Positions 3,451-22,162 of a stretch of DNA of 22,162 nucleotides are shown piece after piece. Below the pieces are notes generated by a model. The model ran no database searches and was not told where the DNA came from. It worked only from the letters and a program-made list of their open reading frames with translations. The position numbers were made by a program, and so were the translations under genes. Position 1 is the first letter of the stretch. Each line of letters begins with the position of its first letter. Origin of the DNA: a virus (taxonomy: Duplodnaviria > Heunggongvirae > Uroviricota > Caudoviricetes). The DNA is taken from IMG/VR virus record IMGVR_UViG_2711768033_000004. One strand, 5' to 3'.

Positions 3451-3470
3451 GATGGTGCCGATAATAGGAG
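3451..3470. repeat. att-site direct repeat (gatggtgccgataataggag); 18 nt are the complement of the tRNA-Thr 3' end
   Basis: 20/20 identity with 16112-16131. It includes the complement of ...CTCCTATTATCGGCACCA, the acceptor 3' strand plus CCA. Confidence 0.6.
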
Positions 3471-3571: not shown

Positions 3572-3681
3572 GGAAGCATGGGAAGCATGGGAAGCATGGG
3601 AAGCATGGGAAGCATGGGAAGCATGGGAAGCATGGGAAGCATGGGAAGCATGGGAAGCATGGGAAGCATGGGAAGCATGGG
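3572..3681. repeat. perfect tandem repeat, 9-bp unit GGAAGCATG x 12 (plus 2 nt)
   Basis: Counted directly in the sequence: twelve identical consecutive units with no degenerate copies. No stop codon in any frame on either strand. Confidence 0.95.
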
Positions 3682-13185: not shown

Positions 13186-13275
13186 TTCGTTACCTCTTAT
13201 AACGGTTGGTTAAATGCCCGATTTGTGTTCCCGCACAATCGGGCATTGCTTTTACAAGCGAACTATACTTACAAT

Positions 13276-13319
13276 GGTAATTACCATGTAGTCATCATAT
13301 TCTAGGGTAATTACCATGT
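13276..13319. promoter_or_regulatory. two copies of GGTAATTACCATGT (perfect 10-bp palindrome GGTAATTACC plus ATGT), 30 bp apart; candidate operator pair
   Basis: Copies at 13276-13289 and 13306-13319. They sit in the divergent region between the primase operon and the RHH gene, and the second copy overlaps the RHH start codon. Confidence 0.5.
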
Positions 13320-13489
13320 CAACACCACAAGAGAAACGTTCTCCACCATTCCAAATGCGTCTTACCGACGATTTTAGGTTGCAACTCGAAAACGAAATGC
13401 GCAAAGATGGAGATAGCGCGTTGGCAACTTGGATTAAAAGAATTTTACGCAAAGAACTCCAATCACGCGGGATTGACCCTAAAGGCTAA
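13316..13489 (+). CDS. small ribbon-helix-helix (Arc/CopG-like) DNA-binding protein (57 aa)
   Basis: Not in the ORF track because it is under 60 aa. Translation MSTPQEKRSPPFQMRLTDDFRLQLENEMRKDGDSALATWIKRILRKELQSRGIDPKG has a strand-helix-helix pattern. Its start lies inside the operator repeat. Confidence 0.45.
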   Translation: MSTPQEKRSPPFQMRLTDDFRLQLENEMRKDGDSALATWIKRILRKELQSRGIDPKG

Positions 13490-13521: not shown

Positions 13522-13812
13522 TTAGGGAGTAGGTGATAATCTATTCCCTTTATTAATTGCTCTTGCCTTATTTCTCATTCCCTCAAAATGTTGACCTGAG
13601 TTTTCTTCAAACCCATCTCGCCACTTATAATAATCAGCAGCGCGCCATCGTGACATCCGACCTATTTTTATAGGTTTTGGAAAGCGATTCAGAGAAATCA
13701 ATCGATAAATCCATTTATCACTTAATAAACAATCGGAAGTAATAAACTTCATATCGATCAGAGAATCCATTGAAGGTCGTTGCAAAGTAGTATTATCATG
13801 TTTAGATAACAT
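13522..13812 (-). CDS. AlpA-family phage transcriptional regulator / excisionase-like protein (96 aa)
   Basis: KWIYRLISLNRFPKPIKIGRMSRWRAADYYKWRD matches the AlpA pattern (...IYRLI...FPKPIKLG.R...W...EW). GGAG lies 8 nt before the ATG. Confidence 0.7.
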   Translation of the reverse strand: MLSKHDNTTLQRPSMDSLIDMKFITSDCLLSDKWIYRLISLNRFPKPIKIGRMSRWRAADYYKWRDGFEENSGQHFEGMRNKARAINKGNRLSPTP

Positions 13813-13937
13813 TCATCATTCTCCGTTTATCTAAGTCTATTGGCTTCAACACGGAAAATTAAAACATAGGTTATAAATGAGAAAAATGTGACTAATGAAA
13901 AAAATCCAAAATCATTAGCCACAATAATTGTTAATAT

Positions 13938-14762
13938 TTAGTTAAACTTAATGTTTTTCATGCAACTACGTAGCAAACTAACAACAGTATCATAGCTCAA
14001 AGGCGGTTCTCCGGTCTTAGGCCAGAACTCACTGGCATGTTGAAAAAGATAATCAGCTATCGCTGCTGGACTCTCTCTTCTTAGCCTCATATCACGATGA
14101 TAGAGCGAAATAATAGCCATGAGTATTTCAGCTCGAGGAACAGCATGTTTTTGTTTTTGCGCCTCAGATTGTGATTTATATTTATTGGCGTTTTTTATCC
14201 GCTTTTGTTCGCATAAGACTATATCAATGAATTTTTGAATCTGTACCTTTGTAATCCACAAAACCTCAAAAAGATAATAATTTTCTTTTTCATCATAATT
14301 TACATAAAGAATTACCTTACAATTTATATTAGGCGTACCCGCCAGTAGAAAATGAATAGGCCAGGAATCCGGTTGCCCCTCATGCTTAACTAACAGATCT
14401 TTATATTCATAATCAACAGCCCATAAACCGGATATGAAACATCGAATAAAACCATTTTTATCAATTAAATTATCTTCATCAGGGATTCTTATAGAACTTA
14501 AGTCTGACAACATAATATTGCCATTTCTATCTCGTGGTAAATATTTCAGATTAGATAAGAACTCATCCATTTGACCATCAATCTTCAAACCACATGAAAC
14601 ATCATACTCATCATCATGGAATTCCATGCATAGCTCTACATCTCGTTCTCTGGCAAACCAGAGTATATCCTTTTCACTACAACCAATTTTTTCTGAAGCT
14701 TCCTCCAACTGGTAGTAATCTCTGAGCAGAGAATCAGTATTATTAATTTTTAAAATATTCAT
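13938..14762 (-). CDS. hypothetical AT-rich protein (274 aa) with a possible N-terminal HTH, translationally coupled to the integrase
   Basis: Its ATG overlaps the integrase stop (ATGA). The N-terminal segment YQLEEASEKIGCSEKDILWFARE looks HTH-like. The rest has no recognisable motif. Confidence 0.7.
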   Translation of the reverse strand: MNILKINNTDSLLRDYYQLEEASEKIGCSEKDILWFARERDVELCMEFHDDEYDVSCGLKIDGQMDEFLSNLKYLPRDRNGNIMLSDLSSIRIPDEDNLIDKNGFIRCFISGLWAVDYEYKDLLVKHEGQPDSWPIHFLLAGTPNINCKVILYVNYDEKENYYLFEVLWITKVQIQKFIDIVLCEQKRIKNANKYKSQSEAQKQKHAVPRAEILMAIISLYHRDMRLRRESPAAIADYLFQHASEFWPKTGEPPLSYDTVVSLLRSCMKNIKFN

Positions 14763-15949
14763 TTATGAGTACCAATTAGCTCAGATAAATAATTAGCATA
14801 CCATTGCATCATTTCTCTTCTCCCTTCGAGATATTGGGCATGGTTATAAATTCCACGAATAGAGTTTTTGTCCGAATGAGCAAGCTGGGTTTCAATCCAA
14901 GCGCTGTTAAATCCTTTCTCATGTAGGATTGTACTCATCGTATGCCTGAAACCATGCCCCGTAACACGCCCTGCATATCCAATACGTTTAAACACCTGAT
15001 TAATGCTTGCTTCACTCATAAATTTGCTAGGATCGTTGCGTCCAGGGAACATCAGCGGGTAGTTCCCAGTTAGTTCTTTCAAACTTTTGAGATGGGATAA
15101 TGCTTGTTTTGACAACGGGACAATATGGCTCCTACGCATTTTCATACGTTCTTTTGGGATCTCCCACACCGCATTATCAAAATCCACCTCTCGCCACTCA
15201 CCTGCTCGTAGTTCTCCAGTTCGTAGACCTGTCAGGATAAGTAAATGCGCCCCCAACAATACAATTGGACTTCCTGAATAAGAATTAAGGGCATTAAAGA
15301 ACTCCGGTAGTTCGTTGGCTTTGAGGAATGGATAGTGGACTGCTTCATGTCCTTGCATCGCACTGGCAAGATCCGGTGCCGGATTGTAGATTGCCCTACC
15401 CGTTACGATGGCATAGCGAAAAACTTCACCGCATCGCTGACGGACTTTCTTCGCTTTCTCCATAGCGCCTCGAGTTTCTATCAACCTCAGAACTTCAAGC
15501 AGTTCAAGGGGCTGAATATCAGCTATAGGTCTGTGCCCAATATGCGGGAAAATGTCTTTCTCGAATGCCTCAATGATGTCGGAAGCATAGCCCTCAGACC
15601 ATTTGGGTGATTTCATTTTGTGCCACTCTAACGCCACTTCTCTGAATGGGTTAAGTGTCTCAATCGCTGCATTTAAAGCCTGCTTTTTGGCTTTTTTGAC
15701 TTCGCCGGGATCTTCACCTGCTGCGAGTAGTTTCTTCGCGTCTTCTCGTTTTTGTCTGGCATCAGCAAGTGTGACTGTTGGATAAACACCAAAGGACAAT
15801 CGTTTCTCTTTACCAGCAAAACGGTATTTCATACGCCAGTAACGCGAGCCATTAGGTTCGACCTGAAGGTATAGGCCACCTCCATCAAACAGCTTGTAGC
15901 TCTTCTCTTTTCCTTTCGCAGCTTCAACCTTGCGGGCATTCAGCATCAT
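14759..15949 (-). CDS. P4-type tyrosine integrase
   Basis: Begins MMLNARKVEAAKGKEKSYKLFDGGGLYLQV, typical of a P4-family integrase N-terminus, with the catalytic region ...HGFRHT... It lies about 165 bp from the tRNA 3' fragment. The track's longer ORF starts at a TTG (16018); I prefer ATG 15949. Confidence 0.9.
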   Translation of the reverse strand: MMLNARKVEAAKGKEKSYKLFDGGGLYLQVEPNGSRYWRMKYRFAGKEKRLSFGVYPTVTLADARQKREDAKKLLAAGEDPGEVKKAKKQALNAAIETLNPFREVALEWHKMKSPKWSEGYASDIIEAFEKDIFPHIGHRPIADIQPLELLEVLRLIETRGAMEKAKKVRQRCGEVFRYAIVTGRAIYNPAPDLASAMQGHEAVHYPFLKANELPEFFNALNSYSGSPIVLLGAHLLILTGLRTGELRAGEWREVDFDNAVWEIPKERMKMRRSHIVPLSKQALSHLKSLKELTGNYPLMFPGRNDPSKFMSEASINQVFKRIGYAGRVTGHGFRHTMSTILHEKGFNSAWIETQLAHSDKNSIRGIYNHAQYLEGRREMMQWYANYLSELIGTHK

Positions 15950-16113
15950 TGGGGGCACATTTCCTAGACCGAACAGAACATGCCCCTGATTGTGCCCCCA
16001 ACCGCGTGTTGATTTCAAGAGACAAGGGTTGACCTCAAACGTATGAAAACAACGTAATATATATGTTTTTAAATGATTTTGTTGATGTGGGTTGACTTGG
16101 GAAAACTAGGTGA

Positions 16114-16159
16114 TGGTGCCGATAATAGGAGTCGAACCTACGACCTTCGCATTACGAAT
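16114..16159 (-). repeat. partial tRNA-Thr(CGU) (thrW-like) 3' portion, 46 nt from the anticodon loop to CCA; att remnant, not a functional tRNA
   Basis: The reverse complement reads ATTCGTAATGCGAAGGTCGTAGGTTCGACTCCTATTATCGGCACCA: anticodon CGT, T-loop TTCGACT, acceptor 3' strand and CCA. The sequence 5' of this does not match a tRNA, so no cloverleaf can form. Confidence 0.8.
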
Positions 16160-16549: not shown

Positions 16550-19500
16550 TTATCTCGTAAAATTAGTTTTATGACTTCCTGTTAGCTGACTGTCTTCATA
16601 ATAAAATGCCCCACTAAACTCCTGTCGACCATAATGATGACTTGATGTGAGTGAGCCCCCTATAACACCTTTTTCACCTAATAATGTCCAAACGATTTCA
16701 AAACCATTGTCCCTTAACATTGTTAAAAATGGTTCTTTTTTAACAAGTAGATGCGGCTTTGAAGCATATACAGCTTCAGCTGCAAAGCAAACCATAGTTC
16801 CATTTTCATCATTGAAGCTACCCTCTACTTCCCCATTTTTTAAGCCCATCTTTTCAAAGATTAAGTTGCTAGGCTTCAAAAAATTCAAAGCTTCTATTTT
16901 TGATTTGTCGAACTCCTCTCCCCACAAATAATTAATCGAAGTGACACTAACATCAGCTATCTTAGCTCCAGACTCCCGGTCTGTTACCGAAGTCCAGTCA
17001 GAACCACCATAATAATCTGATTTAAAAGACTTAAATGCTTCGGACCAATAGTACTCCCTATTAAATAATTGGTATCTATCAGTACATTCCGGCATCCACC
17101 TGCCCATAAAGTCTTGAGCTATTGCCCAACATCTAAAATTTTCAAATTCTTGAACTTTAACGATATAACTTCTGATCTGATACCAAACCTCTTTTCGTGG
17201 GTGCCCCCAATCATCGTTTCCAATAATTTTTGGTTCTTTCCATGATGGATAACTTTCTAATACTATCCATTCATCACCATTATCATCTTTAACTTCAATC
17301 AAAGCATATGGATTAGTTATAGTAGTAGAGCTTTTAACCCAGTCTTCATTAGAGCAAGTCCAATCAAACACTTCATCATTAAGCCACCACATTTCTTTAT
17401 TGCTTATTTTTTTCGTCCCAGTTTCTTTAAGTAAGATAGTGGGATCTATATCTCTTACGTAAGGCTCCCATGGCCCTTGGTATGGGTTTTCCTTTCGGTC
17501 GTCACCATAACCTTCAAAACGAATAAAATTATCGGCTAGCCTTGCCATGTATTCATAATAAGCAATCCATTGGTATTTTTTACCAATCCGTTCTTGGAAT
17601 TCCTCTCTACGTCCACGTCCAGTTCCTATTTGTTGATCAAAATCACCATGCTTCTCCGGATCCCAACCAAGTTCCAGAACACGATTGAATATAAATTGTT
17701 GAGCTAGTCGAAGATCAAAGTGTTTATCAGTTTCCAGCAGATTATTATTATGATCTAGGTATGGCTCTATTTCATTTTCAAACTCACTTAACAGATCGTA
17801 TGACAATGAATTCTTAAATAGCTTCTTGCTCGCCTTTATTTCTTCCTGTGCTTTTCTACCGACCACGCTACCAAATTTAATTCCTTCACATTTATCATCA
17901 TAAATGAAAGGATCTGTAGCATCATACAATTTTTTTTGTTGGTCAGTTAGTTTACATTTGAAAGTTTTAAAAATTTTCTTACGGTCAATAGGAGTTTCAT
18001 TAAACTTGCAACCAGACCAATCAGAATGATTGTAATTTGTTCCAATGGTATATCGTGAAAAGTCACCACCTCCCATAATCGAGCTCCAGAGTGCCCGATA
18101 AGGTTCTTTATTATAAAGAGACTCTAGTTCCTCTTTTGGAGGAATCTCGTCAGGCCAAATGCTGTTGTAGGGTGGCCTAGTCTTGGATAATTCAATACTT
18201 TCAAGTTCCAGTCCAAGATGATTAGCAAATTCAATAATCTCTCTCGCATAATCTCTAAGTAATATATTTGGATACACAGACTCAGAACAAAATACCTTTT
18301 GGTAAACAGTTTCGGCTAAATATTTTAGTTCTTTAATATTATCAGTTCGCAATGTACAACCCAATGCAACTGCAAATATTCTTTCCCAAACGTAAGGATC
18401 ATTTACACCATAAAACTTATCAATTATTTTTCTCAATACAGGAATTCTTGGCTCGAGTAAACTCACTAAAGCCTTGGTTGAGCAATCTCGAAGTTCTCGG
18501 TTACTAGAAGTTAAAAACCAGCATAAACTAGTTGCAACTAGCTCGATTGACTCATCCGAAACGAAGCTTTTATCTGTTCTGCCCCATGCCCAATCGATTA
18601 GATGCCTAAATGCTGAGTCTTCACTATATTTATATTTAAGTTTTGTAGTCCAACACGAATCTCGATTTCCCAAAGAGTAATCTTTTAGCCAATCATGCAA
18701 GAAATTAGCATTAAAGGGATGGTCAACTAAACCTGAAATAGAGATCACTGCCTCGAGAAAATGATCAAAACTACCTTTAAATTTAAAAACATGTTCATTG
18801 ATGAAAGGTCTGATTTTTTCGAAATCAATAGCCTTAATATCTCGCCATATCAAGCTATCAATAAAGGCTTCTAGTAATTTATGATTATTGCTGAACTCCG
18901 GCAGAAATTCATAAAGCTCTTTTCCATACTTTTCTGGCAATTGAATAGAAAGCGCCTCAACTATTCCCGAGTTTGTATAAAAATCACATTCATCATGAAA
19001 ATATTTTTTCAGACGACCATCTGACTTAAATTCATTTTCGATATTTTCAACATCATTTAATAAAAAATTAACGGTTAAATGATCATCAAACCTTTCAAAA
19101 GCCACATGAACTACTTCCTCAGTAGCATTATCATTATTTCTCACTATGCCTTTAGTCAATAATCCTTCGTCAATCAAGGCGCTGAGGAAATTTTTATCTG
19201 TAACATAATCATTAACTACAGATTGAACCACTGAGTGAGCATCTCTAAGTGAAATACTATTACTACCAATCTCTAATTTGAATTTTATGATTTCGTTGAG
19301 AGCATCTTTTACAAGAGGAAAACTGGGATCGAAATCATATTTTTTTGGCGATGCCAATGATTTATTCACCCCTTCCACTAAAAAGTTAAAAATATTTGAA
19401 ATCCCATTAAACCCAACAGGTACTTTGGTTAAACCATTTTTCTTAATGCCTTCACACAATAACTTAAGAAATAGAGGGTTTTTAAACTCTGGATTAAGAT

Positions 19501-21004
19501 TAGGTGATGAAGGCCTCTCTATATTGTAATAATCATAAAATAGACTAACCGCTTCTAACTCAACATTCTGAAATCCAATATGTTCATGAATTTCAAAATT
19601 ATTTCGCTCAACATTCTCATGTGAAATTGTTACATTTCTATATGTTGTTCTGACTGACATTATCAGACCAAGCCATTCAAAGCATCTGATTTCATCGACA
19701 AAACTGTTAATATTGTCATTCCAGAATTTATTTCCATTACCTTCATTAATAGCATCAATGAAAACCAAGACTCTTTTTCCTGTTTTTTTGCCATATAAAT
19801 TCAGTTTTTCCAGGAATTCACGAGAAGTGATTTTAAGCTGTAATCTCTTGAAGATCTGTGACCATGGAGATTCATCTGAAGTAAGTTGTTGCCCTAGTAT
19901 GAGTAGAGAAGGATATCCAGAAGCAATTCGATTTTTAATCACATCAGCCAGTAAATGAGACTTACCAATTCCAGCTTTTCCTTCGAGAAGTAAGAATGGG
20001 TTGTTAGCCAACTTTACTGTTGTTGAATTAATGAATGTACGTAATTCATTGCACGCATAGTCAAGTTCCCGAAGCATTCGCAGAGTAGATGAATACTTAT
20101 CACTGTAATGCTTGGTTTCACCTACTTGTTCTGACTTTTCTCGGAGTTCCCACAATATTGATTCCGCTCCGCCAATAGCTGTCTGGCAGCTGTCAACATA
20201 GTTATTAAATTTATTTATAGGAATTTGATCTAATTTAGAAAAATTAAGCTCTTGATATATATCCGCAATTTGATTTAAGGACTCGTCTATTACAGATAAT
20301 TCTGAGTAAATTACATCGCAACTATGTAACCTCTTTCTAGTCATCAGAAAATTATCTATATGTGAGTAAAATATTTTAGCAAAATCATCAGTTCTACCGA
20401 GACCATCAAATATCTCTGCTATTTCTAGCTTTACGTTGAGTTCGGGTGTGTATCGGCCTCCCAAGTCAGCTATTGCTTGACTATTTTTTTCATTTAACCA
20501 ACCATCACTCAAGTGAAAAGTTAGTTTGTCATCTATAGACCGCAAAATAAGTTTAACTTGAATAAGCTCTTCATTAATATCGAATATTTTTTCTTTATAC
20601 GTTTCTTCGATATGTAGCTTTTTTAACTTCGAACAATTATTGATTTTTAACGATAACATCTCATAAAAAAGGCTGAGTTGTTGTTGAGTTGGGGGGGTGA
20701 TGCTTGGATATTCTTTGAACTTGTCTAATAATATCCCTTTGTCAGGGAACTCTTTAAACAAGATGTGTTCATTCAACATCTCAAACAATGGTTCAGAATG
20801 ATAAAATGGAATTGCTCCACTTTCTACTGGATATGTTTCTTCAAACTCAATTGCCGTCTCTTCAATTAGTTGATATAATCTATCCACATATCTTTTTTGG
20901 GGGAATAATGCTTTCTTAATACAACCATATCCTTCTTGAGAGATGAATTGATCAATAAGTTTAGTTGCTACATAAGTTGCCACTGTAATTGATATAGGTT
21001 CCAT
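16550..21004 (-). CDS. large STAND / NACHT-like P-loop NTPase (1484 aa), candidate antiviral NLR-like protein
   Basis: Uninterrupted 4.4-kb ORF, markedly AT-rich. Walker A LLLEGKAGIGKSHLL (GxAGxGKS, NACHT-type) at about residue 340; Walker B-like RVLVFIDAINEG. It has an unassigned N-terminal domain of about 330 aa and a C-terminal region of about 1000 aa. Confidence 0.8.
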   Translation of the reverse strand: MEPISITVATYVATKLIDQFISQEGYGCIKKALFPQKRYVDRLYQLIEETAIEFEETYPVESGAIPFYHSEPLFEMLNEHILFKEFPDKGILLDKFKEYPSITPPTQQQLSLFYEMLSLKINNCSKLKKLHIEETYKEKIFDINEELIQVKLILRSIDDKLTFHLSDGWLNEKNSQAIADLGGRYTPELNVKLEIAEIFDGLGRTDDFAKIFYSHIDNFLMTRKRLHSCDVIYSELSVIDESLNQIADIYQELNFSKLDQIPINKFNNYVDSCQTAIGGAESILWELREKSEQVGETKHYSDKYSSTLRMLRELDYACNELRTFINSTTVKLANNPFLLLEGKAGIGKSHLLADVIKNRIASGYPSLLILGQQLTSDESPWSQIFKRLQLKITSREFLEKLNLYGKKTGKRVLVFIDAINEGNGNKFWNDNINSFVDEIRCFEWLGLIMSVRTTYRNVTISHENVERNNFEIHEHIGFQNVELEAVSLFYDYYNIERPSSPNLNPEFKNPLFLKLLCEGIKKNGLTKVPVGFNGISNIFNFLVEGVNKSLASPKKYDFDPSFPLVKDALNEIIKFKLEIGSNSISLRDAHSVVQSVVNDYVTDKNFLSALIDEGLLTKGIVRNNDNATEEVVHVAFERFDDHLTVNFLLNDVENIENEFKSDGRLKKYFHDECDFYTNSGIVEALSIQLPEKYGKELYEFLPEFSNNHKLLEAFIDSLIWRDIKAIDFEKIRPFINEHVFKFKGSFDHFLEAVISISGLVDHPFNANFLHDWLKDYSLGNRDSCWTTKLKYKYSEDSAFRHLIDWAWGRTDKSFVSDESIELVATSLCWFLTSSNRELRDCSTKALVSLLEPRIPVLRKIIDKFYGVNDPYVWERIFAVALGCTLRTDNIKELKYLAETVYQKVFCSESVYPNILLRDYAREIIEFANHLGLELESIELSKTRPPYNSIWPDEIPPKEELESLYNKEPYRALWSSIMGGGDFSRYTIGTNYNHSDWSGCKFNETPIDRKKIFKTFKCKLTDQQKKLYDATDPFIYDDKCEGIKFGSVVGRKAQEEIKASKKLFKNSLSYDLLSEFENEIEPYLDHNNNLLETDKHFDLRLAQQFIFNRVLELGWDPEKHGDFDQQIGTGRGRREEFQERIGKKYQWIAYYEYMARLADNFIRFEGYGDDRKENPYQGPWEPYVRDIDPTILLKETGTKKISNKEMWWLNDEVFDWTCSNEDWVKSSTTITNPYALIEVKDDNGDEWIVLESYPSWKEPKIIGNDDWGHPRKEVWYQIRSYIVKVQEFENFRCWAIAQDFMGRWMPECTDRYQLFNREYYWSEAFKSFKSDYYGGSDWTSVTDRESGAKIADVSVTSINYLWGEEFDKSKIEALNFLKPSNLIFEKMGLKNGEVEGSFNDENGTMVCFAAEAVYASKPHLLVKKEPFLTMLRDNGFEIVWTLLGEKGVIGGSLTSSHHYGRQEFSGAFYYEDSQLTGSHKTNFTR

Positions 21005-21112
21005 GATTAGCTTCTTCCAATAATTAAAATTTTACCAAGCGTTTATGCCTTACAATATGTATTGTATCTCACCGTAAAACATATTTATGTGGTTTTAAAC
21101 CTATCTGTAAAT

Positions 21113-21129
21113 CTTGCCACCTTGGCAAG
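21113..21129. promoter_or_regulatory. palindrome CTTGCCA-CCT-TGGCAAG (7-bp arms) in the promoter region of the NTPase gene
   Basis: Read directly from the sequence, about 110 bp upstream of the NTPase start codon and downstream of the invertase gene. Confidence 0.3.
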
Positions 21130-21526
21130 AACCTAATCCTACATTTTAATATCAGTCTATATAATATAGCCAGTGTCATAATAATCGGGCTTGTCATAGT
21201 TAAGTATTCGCCTCCGATATCCCAATGAGATAAGTAAGTCATCAGTGTTATAAATGAAAAGATCACATTTTTCAAAGAGTTATTATGATGGAATATTATT
21301 CAAAACGCAATGTAGCTGAAACGAGTCTGAGTTTAACATCCGCTCCTAGTACATAGTAGTCCCAGGGACAGTGGCGTAAAGTCATAGATGGCCGGTGGGA
21401 GGTGGTGGAAATCCTCTCATGCAAAAAATACATAAAATCGATAACGGCTGGAAATCATTCAATACTCGCACCATCGAAAGTTCACCAGCCAACCGCGCAC
21501 GATCTTGCATACGACATGCTACGGTT

Positions 21527-22081
21527 TCATTTATCTCCGACCGGAAACTTCTTATACAGTGTCGATACTCCAACATCATAGATGATCGCCACCTTCTGGC
21601 GAGGAACGCCTGATGCAATTAATCGCCCGGCCTGCGCCCATTGTTCTGGTGTAAGTTTGGGACGACGTCCACCAATTCGTCCCTGTGCGCGAGCAACTTC
21701 CAGTCCAGCTTTTGTTCGTTCAACAATCAGTTCTCGTTCCATTTCAGCCAGGGCACCCATCACATGAAAGAAAAAACGCCCCATCGGTGTGCTGGTATCA
21801 ATAGCATCCGTCAGGCTGCGAAAATTAACGCCACGTTCGCGCAACTCCTCAACCAGAATGACCAGATGCCGCATACTACGCCCCAGCCGATCCAGCTTCC
21901 AGACAACCAGAGTGTCACCTGCCGATAATGTCCTGAGCAGTTTTTTCAGTCCCGGCCTTTCGGACTTTGTACCGCTTATCTTGTCTTCAAAAATCAGCTC
22001 GCATCCTGCACAGTTCAGCGCATTACGTTGTAGATCTGTGTTCTGGTCATTTGTTGACACACGTACATAGCCAATAAGCAT
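21527..22081 (-). CDS. Pin/Hin/Gin-family serine DNA invertase (about 184 aa)
   Basis: MLIGYVRVSTNDQNTDLQRNAL... with catalytic-serine motif YVRVSTNDQ, then ...LVVWKLDRLGRSM...MGRFFFHVMGALAEMERELIVERT... and a C-terminal HTH. GGAG lies before the ATG at 22081. The 12 extra N-terminal codons in the track are probably not translated. Confidence 0.9.
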   Translation of the reverse strand: MLIGYVRVSTNDQNTDLQRNALNCAGCELIFEDKISGTKSERPGLKKLLRTLSAGDTLVVWKLDRLGRSMRHLVILVEELRERGVNFRSLTDAIDTSTPMGRFFFHVMGALAEMERELIVERTKAGLEVARAQGRIGGRRPKLTPEQWAQAGRLIASGVPRQKVAIIYDVGVSTLYKKFPVGDK

Positions 22082-22162
22082 GGTAGATCTCCCTGGCAAA
22101 AGCAGGAATGATGCCATTTGCTCGTTATTTCTGCATTTTCATAAACGTTGGTTTGGGAGAAG

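What the first reader, a model, noticed from the sequence alone, without database searches (positions are those of the whole stretch)
13938..14762. AT-rich 274-aa gene translationally coupled to the integrase
Its ATG overlaps the integrase stop codon (ATGA), so it is co-expressed with int, but its base composition is unlike the backbone. The N-terminus looks HTH-like and the rest is unrecognised. It could be a recombination directionality or regulatory factor, or a second cargo gene.
Basis: partly seen in the sequence, partly recalled or inferred. Interest (0 to 1): 0.4.

Follow-up and report, generated by a model that had tools for sequence, protein, structure and literature searches.

The report
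Integrase-coupled orphan gene of phage satellite
The 274-codon AT-rich gene is real and is fused by an ATGA overlap to the integrase gene, but it is a conserved, fast-diverging backbone gene of a small family of P4-like phage satellites rather than imported cargo, and its function is still unknown.

Summary
A 274-aa ORF lies at 13938-14762 on the minus strand. Its ATG overlaps the integrase TGA (ATGA). Its GC is 34.5%, against 45% for int and 59% for the primase.

The window holds a ~12.7-kb P4-related satellite inserted at tRNA-Thr (thrW), bounded by att repeats at 3451 and 16112. The gene order is int, X (this gene), AlpA-like, Arc-like/Icd-like, primase, psu-like, ogr/delta, DRT3.

X is not cargo.
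- Homologues at 20-93% identity sit in the same slot (P4-type integrase, X, AlpA-type gene) in all 10 other lineages examined.
- These lineages have integrases 28-97% identical to this one and different primase types.
- X is the most AT-rich gene of the module in all 10.
- The variable cargo lies at the other end of the element: DRT3 here, Kiwa or ATPases elsewhere.

X matches no Pfam, NCBIfam, PHROG or PADLOC model and no solved or viral fold. Only 44 clusters exist among 1.84 billion representatives. It is under purifying selection (dN/dS 0.11).

The AF2 model shows an N-terminal MerR/Xis-like winged helix, a variable beta-rich middle, a basic long helix and a conserved helical C-terminus. 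The protein is acidic overall.

Best guess: an accessory regulator of the int/alpA excision switch, made together with Int. This is unproven. Interest is modest.

The parts
13938..14762 (-). Gene X, 274 aa. Orphan family protein with four predicted parts: N-terminal winged-helix-like domain (res ~8-62), variable beta-rich middle (63-170), basic long helix (171-210), and conserved helical C-terminal domain (211-270; invariant H206, L214, W247, P254, L255).
   Evidence: ORF. Family alignments. AF2 model with pLDDT 79. dN/dS 0.107. No library hit.
14759..15949 (-). P4-type tyrosine integrase. The start is PGAP's; the longest ORF runs to 16018. Its TGA overlaps the ATG of X.
   Evidence: Pfam Arm-DNA-bind_3, Phage_int_M and Phage_integrase. 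PGAP coordinates. Junction read.
13890..13920 (-). Palindrome/hairpin GGCTAATGA-N13-TCATTAGTC, followed by ACATTTTT. It starts 18 nt after the X stop codon. Probably a weak terminator or a protein-binding site closing the int-X unit.
   Evidence: Comparable hairpins, mostly with a T-run, follow X in L003, L004, L013, L018 and L019. Direct repeats occupy the same place in L010, L014 and L016.
13522..13812 (-). AlpA/Vis-type HTH gene (96 aa), the likely excisionase/activator of the integration zone.
   Evidence: Pfam Phage_AlpA E 4e-4, just under the cutoff. phrog_66 'excisionase and transcriptional regulator' 1.6e-6. It is 67-83% identical in the five elements whose X is only 24-31% identical.
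16112..16131 (.). att repeat next to int. It is part of a 47-nt partial tRNA-Thr (thrW) 3' end at 16113-16159.
   Evidence: 20-nt exact direct repeat with 3451-3470. Sequence read. The complete tRNA-Thr sits at this place in strains VG12A2 and NCTC11121.
3451..3470 (.). att repeat at the far end of the satellite. The element is about 12.7 kb.

Best explanation
X is a backbone gene of the 'integration zone' (int, X, alpA) of a sublineage of P4-related / Gram-negative PICI-type phage satellites.

Shown:
- It is a real gene under purifying selection.
- It is fused to the end of int.
- It always lies between a P4-type integrase and an AlpA-type gene.
- It has conserved N- and C-terminal parts around a fast-diverging middle.

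Inferred:
- It is transcribed from the int promoter and translated by coupling to Int, so it is present in the resident, uninduced state.
- In most lineages the int-X unit ends at a hairpin, and alpA follows with its own control region.
- X acts as an accessory regulator of the integration/excision-induction switch. One route is to hold the adjacent alpA control region, or AlpA or Int themselves, in check. The other is to tune Int activity.
- The conserved C-terminal domain contacts a conserved partner and the variable middle domain provides specificity.
- Because the protein is acidic, protein-protein contacts are at least as likely as DNA binding.
For: - Synteny: int, X and an AlpA-type gene lie in the same orientation in the window and in L003, L004, L008, L009, L014, L016/L017 and L019. 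Short contigs L010, L013 and L018 agree as far as they reach. These elements carry DUF927 or D5_N primases and integrases 28-97% identical to the window's.
- Junction: tight or overlapping in 7 of 9 lineages with a readable junction, counting the window. No terminator-like site on the coding (minus) strand across int and X.
- Hairpin or repeats directly after X in all lineages.
- DNA homology between the window and L003/L004/L019 stops about 30 nt before the X start. It resumes only inside alpA. The X allele and the alpA upstream region therefore travel together.
- Structure: winged-helix-like N-terminus with weak MerR-family and RacA matches.
- Conservation: dN/dS 0.107. The middle domain is 10-19% identical between subfamilies, against 21-44% for the C-terminus.
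- Literature: the integration zone of Gram-negative PICIs is defined as integrase plus AlpA/HTH_17 proteins that control excision and induction (PMC10111431).
Against: - There is no functional evidence of any kind.
- No sequence or fold match to a regulator or excisionase family.
- The N-terminal domain is acidic in most members (pI 4.1-5.4), unlike DNA-binding Xis, AlpA or MerR domains.
- An Arc-like gene with two perfect palindromes over a strong promoter and the AlpA-like gene already supply plausible repressor and excisionase functions.
- IS1 interrupts X at three independent sites in 4 of 66 E. coli genomes. X is therefore dispensable for carriage of the island.
- Most P4-like and PICI elements lack the family. 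It has only 44 clusters at 50% identity among 1.84 billion representatives.
Confidence: 0.4

Rival explanations
1. X is a lysogeny-expressed protective gene, either anti-phage defence or superinfection exclusion, that rides on the int transcript. The precedent is the set of accessory genes next to int in classical P4. Its variable middle domain would recognise phage components.
For: - AT-rich, fast-diverging and acidic, with a variable central domain.
- Likely expressed in the resident state together with int.
- The element is a known carrier of defence systems: DRT3 here, Kiwa in L003.
- IS1 knock-outs are tolerated.
Against: - No hit for the window's X, and no consistent hit among 21 family members, in PADLOC.
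- No enzymatic or effector domain.
- The slot is never occupied by an unrelated gene in the elements examined. That is unlike defence hotspots, whose contents turn over.
- The turnover hotspot of these elements is after ogr/delta.
- Low GC is an old family trait, not a sign of recent import.
Confidence: 0.2
2. X is the recombination directionality factor (excisionase) of this integrase. It would bind att arm DNA or Int directly.
For: - Translational coupling to int.
- Xis/MerR-like winged-helix topology at the N-terminus.
- Position inside the integration zone.
Against: - X is three to four times the size of tyrosine-recombinase RDFs.
- It is acidic rather than basic.
- No similarity to AlpA or HTH_17.
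- An AlpA/Vis-type gene is adjacent.
- X is 24-31% identical where Int is 88-97% identical, so it does not co-vary with Int or att.
- The palindrome after X has no copies near the att ends.
Confidence: 0.1
3. X serves another stage of the satellite cycle and sits next to int only by history. Candidate stages are helper manipulation, replication control or packaging.
For: - X divergence between lineages is similar to that of other small backbone proteins: DUF5375 29% and delta 32%, against X 24%.
Against: - The synteny with int and alpA holds across elements with different replication and late modules.
Confidence: 0.15

Closest known systems
AlpA / P4 Vis / HTH_17 excisionase-type regulators (Pfam PF05930, PF12728)
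   Same: Both are encoded in the integration zone of Gram-negative satellites, co-oriented with int. The predicted N-terminal strand-helix-helix-strand-strand winged helix is of the same general MerR/Xis type.
   Different: X has 274 aa against 60-100. It has two extra domains and is acidic. There is no sequence or profile similarity. A genuine AlpA-type gene sits immediately downstream.
SaPI master repressor Stl (Staphylococcus PICIs). This comparison rests on my own knowledge of the literature.
   Same: About 250-280 aa with an N-terminal HTH. Encoded next to int. Highly polymorphic between otherwise similar islands. Expected to be present in the uninduced state.
   Different: No homology. 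The gene order differs: X lies downstream of int and is coupled to it, not divergent from the early operon. No operator or repressor activity has been shown. A separate Arc-like gene with palindromic operators is present.
MerR-family regulators and MerR-fold protein modulators such as CbpM
   Different: No Pfam MerR hit. A ~105-residue beta-rich domain is inserted between the winged helix and the long helix. There is no effector-binding signature.
Accessory/defence cargo of the P4 hotspot (gop-beta-cII in P4; systems described in PMC9122126 and PMC13586616)
   Same: AT-rich gene close to int in a P4-related satellite.
   Different: Hotspot contents are unrelated genes that replace one another. 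X is one homologous family in a fixed slot. In this lineage the hotspot is at the opposite end, after ogr/delta.
YfjH of E. coli K-12 prophage CP4-57, the gene between intA and alpA
   Same: Occupies the int-alpA interval of a P4-type integrase island.
   Different: No similarity (E 21). It lies on the opposite strand to intA and alpA.

Membership tests
AlpA / HTH_17 excisionase family | Match to Pfam Phage_AlpA (PF05930) or HTH_17 (PF12728) | tested here: not met
   No hit for X even at E<=1. None among 21 family members. hhalign against the window's AlpA and against a 10-sequence AlpA profile gave probability <1%.
AlpA / HTH_17 excisionase family | Small (about 60-100 aa), basic, single winged-helix protein | tested here: not met
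   X has 274 aa and pI 5.4. Its N-terminal domain has net charge -9.
AlpA / HTH_17 excisionase family | MerR/Xis-type winged-helix fold | tested here: inconclusive
Known anti-phage defence systems (PADLOC-DB 2.0) | Match to a defence protein model | tested here: not met
   No hit for X. Among 21 members there were only two isolated weak hits.
Variable cargo of a satellite hotspot | The slot is occupied by unrelated genes in related elements | tested here: not met
   All intact relatives carry an X homologue in the slot. The only relative lacking it has an IS-mediated deletion of the whole island behind int.
Integration zone of P4-related / Gram-negative PICI satellites (PMC10111431) | Gene co-oriented with int, between int at the element's end and an AlpA-type gene, upstream of the replication zone | tested here: met
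   Window layout. att repeats. The same layout is seen in 10 further lineages.
MerR family transcription regulators | Pfam MerR/MerR_1 match, with a C-terminal effector-binding region after the dimerisation helix | tested here: not met
   No Pfam or NCBIfam match. Only weak fold resemblance.
Stl-like helper-sensing repressors | Binds an operator in the island and is released by a helper-phage protein | not testable with these tools
   Only indirect features are available: polymorphic middle domain and position next to int.

The most novel reading that the evidence does not exclude
X is the Gram-negative counterpart, in function, of the SaPI Stl repressor. It would be a polymorphic sensor made together with Int in the resident satellite. 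It would keep the adjacent alpA (excision/induction) switch off. A helper-phage protein recognised by its fast-diverging middle domain would release it. The X allele would then set which helper phages can induce the satellite.
Probability: 0.12. Interest if true: 0.65.

Novelty: new variant of a known kind. Interest (0 to 1): 0.33.

Why it matters
Published schemes for the integration zone of P4-like and PICI satellites hold only the integrase and AlpA-type proteins. This work shows a third, unannotated protein family that is conserved in position and translationally tied to the integrase in a sublineage spread across Enterobacterales. That sublineage carries defence systems such as DRT3 and Kiwa.

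If X controls excision or induction, it would be a handle on how these defence-carrying satellites are mobilised and on which helpers they respond to. If it does nothing of the kind, the result still removes it from the list of candidate cargo or defence genes.

Tried and rejected
Searches that found nothing for X:
- Pfam, NCBIfam, PHROGs and PADLOC, on X itself and on 21 diverse family members. Nothing consistent.
- PDB by sequence profile.
- Foldseek against PDB and BFVD. Nothing at E<=0.001.
- tblastn against 50,697 phage records. No match.
- Rfam on the whole window. No family.

Searches that could not be run or gave little:
- The AlphaFold database library was not available.
With the narrow alignment it gave only 3 loci. 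IMG/VR also gave 3.

Comparisons rejected:
- K-12 YfjH, the gene between intA and alpA in CP4-57, is unrelated.
- HEPN-like catalytic motif: the invariant His/Arg are in the order H-x3-R, not R-x4-6-H. Read from the alignment.
- The palindrome after X as an att-arm site: there are no other copies in the element.

Ideas set aside:
- 'X is uniquely hypervariable between conserved flanks' was softened. Other small backbone proteins diverge as much between the same elements: DUF5375 29% and delta 32%. The near-identical integrase is better read as integrase exchange between satellite lineages.
- A consensus RNA structure sequestering the alpA ribosome site. RNAalifold found none on the alignment. 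Shuffle controls were clear in only 4 of 9 lineages.

Full report
**What is at the coordinates**

The minus strand carries an ATG-initiated ORF at 13938..14762, 274 aa. The + strand reads 'tcat' at 14759-14762. On the coding strand the integrase ends …ACT CAT AAA TGA and the next gene starts at the ATG of that ATGA. PGAP annotates the same CDS as 'hypothetical protein' in an identical island of E. coli MFDS1022581.

GC content by gene:

| Gene | GC |
|---|---|
| X | 34.5% (GC3 28.7%) |
| int | 45.2% |
| AlpA-like gene | 35.4% |
| replication genes | 54-59% |
| DRT3 genes | 29-32% |

The low GC also covers the next gene.

**The surrounding element**

Gene order on the minus strand:
- A P4-type tyrosine integrase with Arm-DNA-bind_3, Phage_int_M and Phage_integrase domains.
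- X.
- An AlpA/Vis-type HTH (Phage_AlpA E 4e-4; phrog_66).
- A convergent Arc-like gene.
- An Icd-like gene, phrog_30862 and DUF5375.
- A Zn-ribbon/Toprim/DUF927 primase.
- A Psu-like gene and an ogr/delta gene.
- DRT3a and DRT3b.

A 20-nt direct repeat (GATGGTGCCGATAATAGGAG) at 3451 and 16112 bounds the element at about 12.7 kb. The copy next to int is part of a 47-nt fragment of the 3' end of tRNA-Thr. In strains VG12A2 and NCTC11121 the complete tRNA-Thr, next to proA, sits there.

This is a P4-related satellite. It has the four-zone layout described for Gram-negative PICIs: Integration, Bro/immunity, Replication, Late (PMC10111431). It does not have the canonical P4 gene order (PMC8628076). 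Avs2 (16550-21004) and a resolvase lie outside the att repeat.

**Is X cargo?**

No.

Distribution in E. coli:
- Megablast with int-X-alpA found 84 of 5426 complete E. coli genomes.
- A search with X alone found 66 genomes carrying this X.
- Most of the remaining int-X-alpA matches have a related integrase (89-93% nt) whose similarity stops within the last ~30 nt of int.
- In two such genomes, L003 and L004, the gene that follows int is a different hypothetical of 265 or 262 aa. It overlaps int by 8 nt or follows it after 3 nt.
- Both are homologues of X: 24% identity at E 4e-26, and 31% at E 2e-37.
- The one genome with a 99.8% identical int and no X has an IS5-family element in place of the rest of the island.

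Size and context of the family:
- An exhaustive profile search of 1.84 billion representative proteins found only 44 clusters at E<=1e-3.
- Context look-ups for close and remote members always showed a P4-type integrase, X and an AlpA-type gene in one orientation. Members looked up were P0014, P0023, P0027, P0031, P0034, P0039 and P0041, at 20-56% identity to X.
- These elements carry either DUF927 or D5_N/Pox_D5 primases.

Composition and location of the true cargo:
- X is the most AT-rich gene of the module in each of the 10 other lineages. It is 34-38% GC in nine, and 45% in a 57% GC element.
- The composition is therefore a property of the family and not a mark of recent import.
- The gene content that changes between relatives lies after ogr/delta: DRT3 here, Kiwa in L003, an AAA_15/AAA_21 pair in L009, a P4 cII-like gene in L019.

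**How X evolves**

Against the Citrobacter orthologue (93% aa) dN/dS is 0.107, similar to alpA (0.099).

Amino-acid identity to the window's proteins:

| Locus | Int | X | AlpA | Primase | Other |
|---|---|---|---|---|---|
| L003 | 97% | 24% | 83% | 67% | DUF5375 29%, delta 32% |
| L004 | 95% | 31% | 83% | - | - |
| L019 | 88% | 29% | 74% | 68% | - |
| L008 | 64% | 60% | 69% | 90% | - |
| L009 | 64% | 56% | 78% | 86% | - |

X is therefore among the fastest-diverging backbone genes. The integrase has evidently been exchanged between lineages.

At the DNA level, similarity between the window and L003/L004/L019 stops at 14791-14799. It resumes only at 13615-13767 inside alpA. The X allele therefore travels with the X-alpA intergenic region and the 5' end of alpA.

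Within the protein, the middle (residues 51-185) is 10-19% identical between subfamilies. The N-terminus is 12-34% and the C-terminus 21-44%.

**The protein**

No model in Pfam, NCBIfam, PHROGs or PADLOC matches X, or consistently matches any of 21 diverse members. All database names are 'hypothetical protein'.

The AF2 model, built with a 17-sequence alignment, has pLDDT 79 and pTM 0.63. It shows:
- strand-helix-helix-strand-strand over residues 16-62;
- a beta-rich region at 65-170;
- a long helix at 172-202;
- a poorly modelled linker holding the invariant His206;
- a helical bundle at 211-270.

Invariant positions across the wide alignment are H206, L214, W247, P254 and L255. The motif is …ERHAxxRExVLMAAI…FWPxxxxPPLSxDTIxxLL….

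Fold comparisons:
- I assign those hits to the N-terminal domain by inference from its topology. The tool does not report the aligned ranges.
- Foldseek against PDB and BFVD, and a PDB sequence-profile search, gave nothing.

Charge:
- The protein is acidic, with pI 5.4.
- The N-terminal domain has net charge -9 in the window and pI 4.1-5.4 in most members.
- Only residues 171-210 are basic.
- No profile similarity to AlpA proteins was detectable.

The 'HTH-like' reading is therefore plausible as a fold. DNA binding is not assured, and a protein-binding role is equally possible.

**Operon logic**

- No terminator-like site on the coding (minus) strand lies across int and X. The only minus-strand promoter-like hits downstream of the int start are weak 9/12 matches inside X, at 14541-14512.
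- The window's X has no recognisable Shine-Dalgarno sequence, whereas most relatives have one.
- Starting 18 nt after the X stop lies GGCTAATGA-N13-TCATTAGTC followed by ACATTTTT (13890-13920).
- Comparable hairpins, mostly with T-runs, follow X in L003, L004, L013, L018 and L019. L010, L014 and L016 have two to four direct repeats there.
- I infer that int and X form one expression unit and that alpA has its own control region. Literature on Gram-negative PICIs says AlpA activates its own promoter (PMC10111431).
- A separate likely immunity switch sits further in. It consists of two perfect ATGGTAATTACCAT palindromes over an 11/12 promoter facing the Icd-primase operon, at the start of the Arc-like gene.

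**Interpretation**

Firmly supported:
- X is a conserved, syntenic, selected backbone gene of the integration zone.
- It is coupled to int.
- It is not cargo.

Inferred from position only: X modulates the int/alpA excision-induction switch. My probability for this is about 0.4.

Rivals:
- A lysogeny-expressed protective factor, 0.2.
- Another stage of the satellite cycle, 0.15.
- The RDF proper, 0.1. Size, charge, the neighbouring AlpA-type gene and the lack of co-variation with Int all count against this.

IS1 insertions at three independent sites in X occur in 4 of 66 genomes. X is therefore dispensable for carriage of the island. IS1's known preference for AT-rich targets (my own knowledge) may explain the clustering.

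**Novelty**

I found no description of a gene family between int and alpA in the papers read (PMC8628076, PMC13586616, PMC10111431, PMC11773190). The family has no Pfam or NCBIfam model. It is an uncharacterised component in a known functional niche, which makes it a new variant of a known kind. Interest is modest unless the helper-sensor reading proves true.

Noticed in passing
window 3572-3681: Perfect 9-nt tandem repeat (GGAAGCATG, 12.2 copies) lies between the far att repeat and the end of drt3b. The otherwise identical island in L001 has 10 copies, so the copy number varies between strains. Any relation to DRT3 or to attP is unknown.
   Followed up: partly
window 13274-13322: Two perfect ATGGTAATTACCAT palindromes lie 30 nt apart. 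They overlap an 11/12 sigma-70-like promoter that faces the Icd-like/primase operon, and the start codon of the divergent 57-aa Arc-like gene. This is probably the satellite's immunity operator.
   Followed up: partly
window 13813-13870 (upstream of the AlpA-like gene); same region in L003, L009, L010, L013, L016, L018, L019: In single-sequence folds the alpA ribosome-binding site pairs with an upstream pyrimidine tract. The arm sequences differ between lineages. Pairing exceeds shuffled controls clearly in only 4 of 9 lineages. RNAalifold found no consensus.
   Followed up: partly
window 16113-16159 and 16550-22117: A 47-nt fragment of the tRNA-Thr (thrW) 3' end separates the satellite from an Avs2 gene (1484 aa; PADLOC score 1751 bits) and a resolvase. 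This suggests a second island in tandem at thrW. No complete tRNA is in the window.
   Followed up: no
L003 5946-6950 and L019 10007-11008: Related satellites with a diverged X carry a P2-family major capsid gene between alpA and the Icd-like gene.
   Followed up: no
L021 1604-2301, L025 1024-1721, L026 1554-2251 (E. coli VG12A2, NCTC11121/NCTC9966, 50EVAW): IS1 is inserted in gene X at three different positions in natural isolates. None was seen in int or alpA among the 66 genomes that carry this allele.
   Followed up: yes
window 15949-16001: Inverted repeat TTGGGGGCACA / TGTGCCCCCAA spans the annotated int start and its upstream region. It may be a regulatory or arm-type site.
   Followed up: no
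window vs L003, L004, L019: Integrases are 88-97% identical on satellites whose primases are only 67-68% identical. This points to exchange of the integrase gene between satellite lineages, with a breakpoint about 30 nt before the int stop codon.
   Followed up: partly
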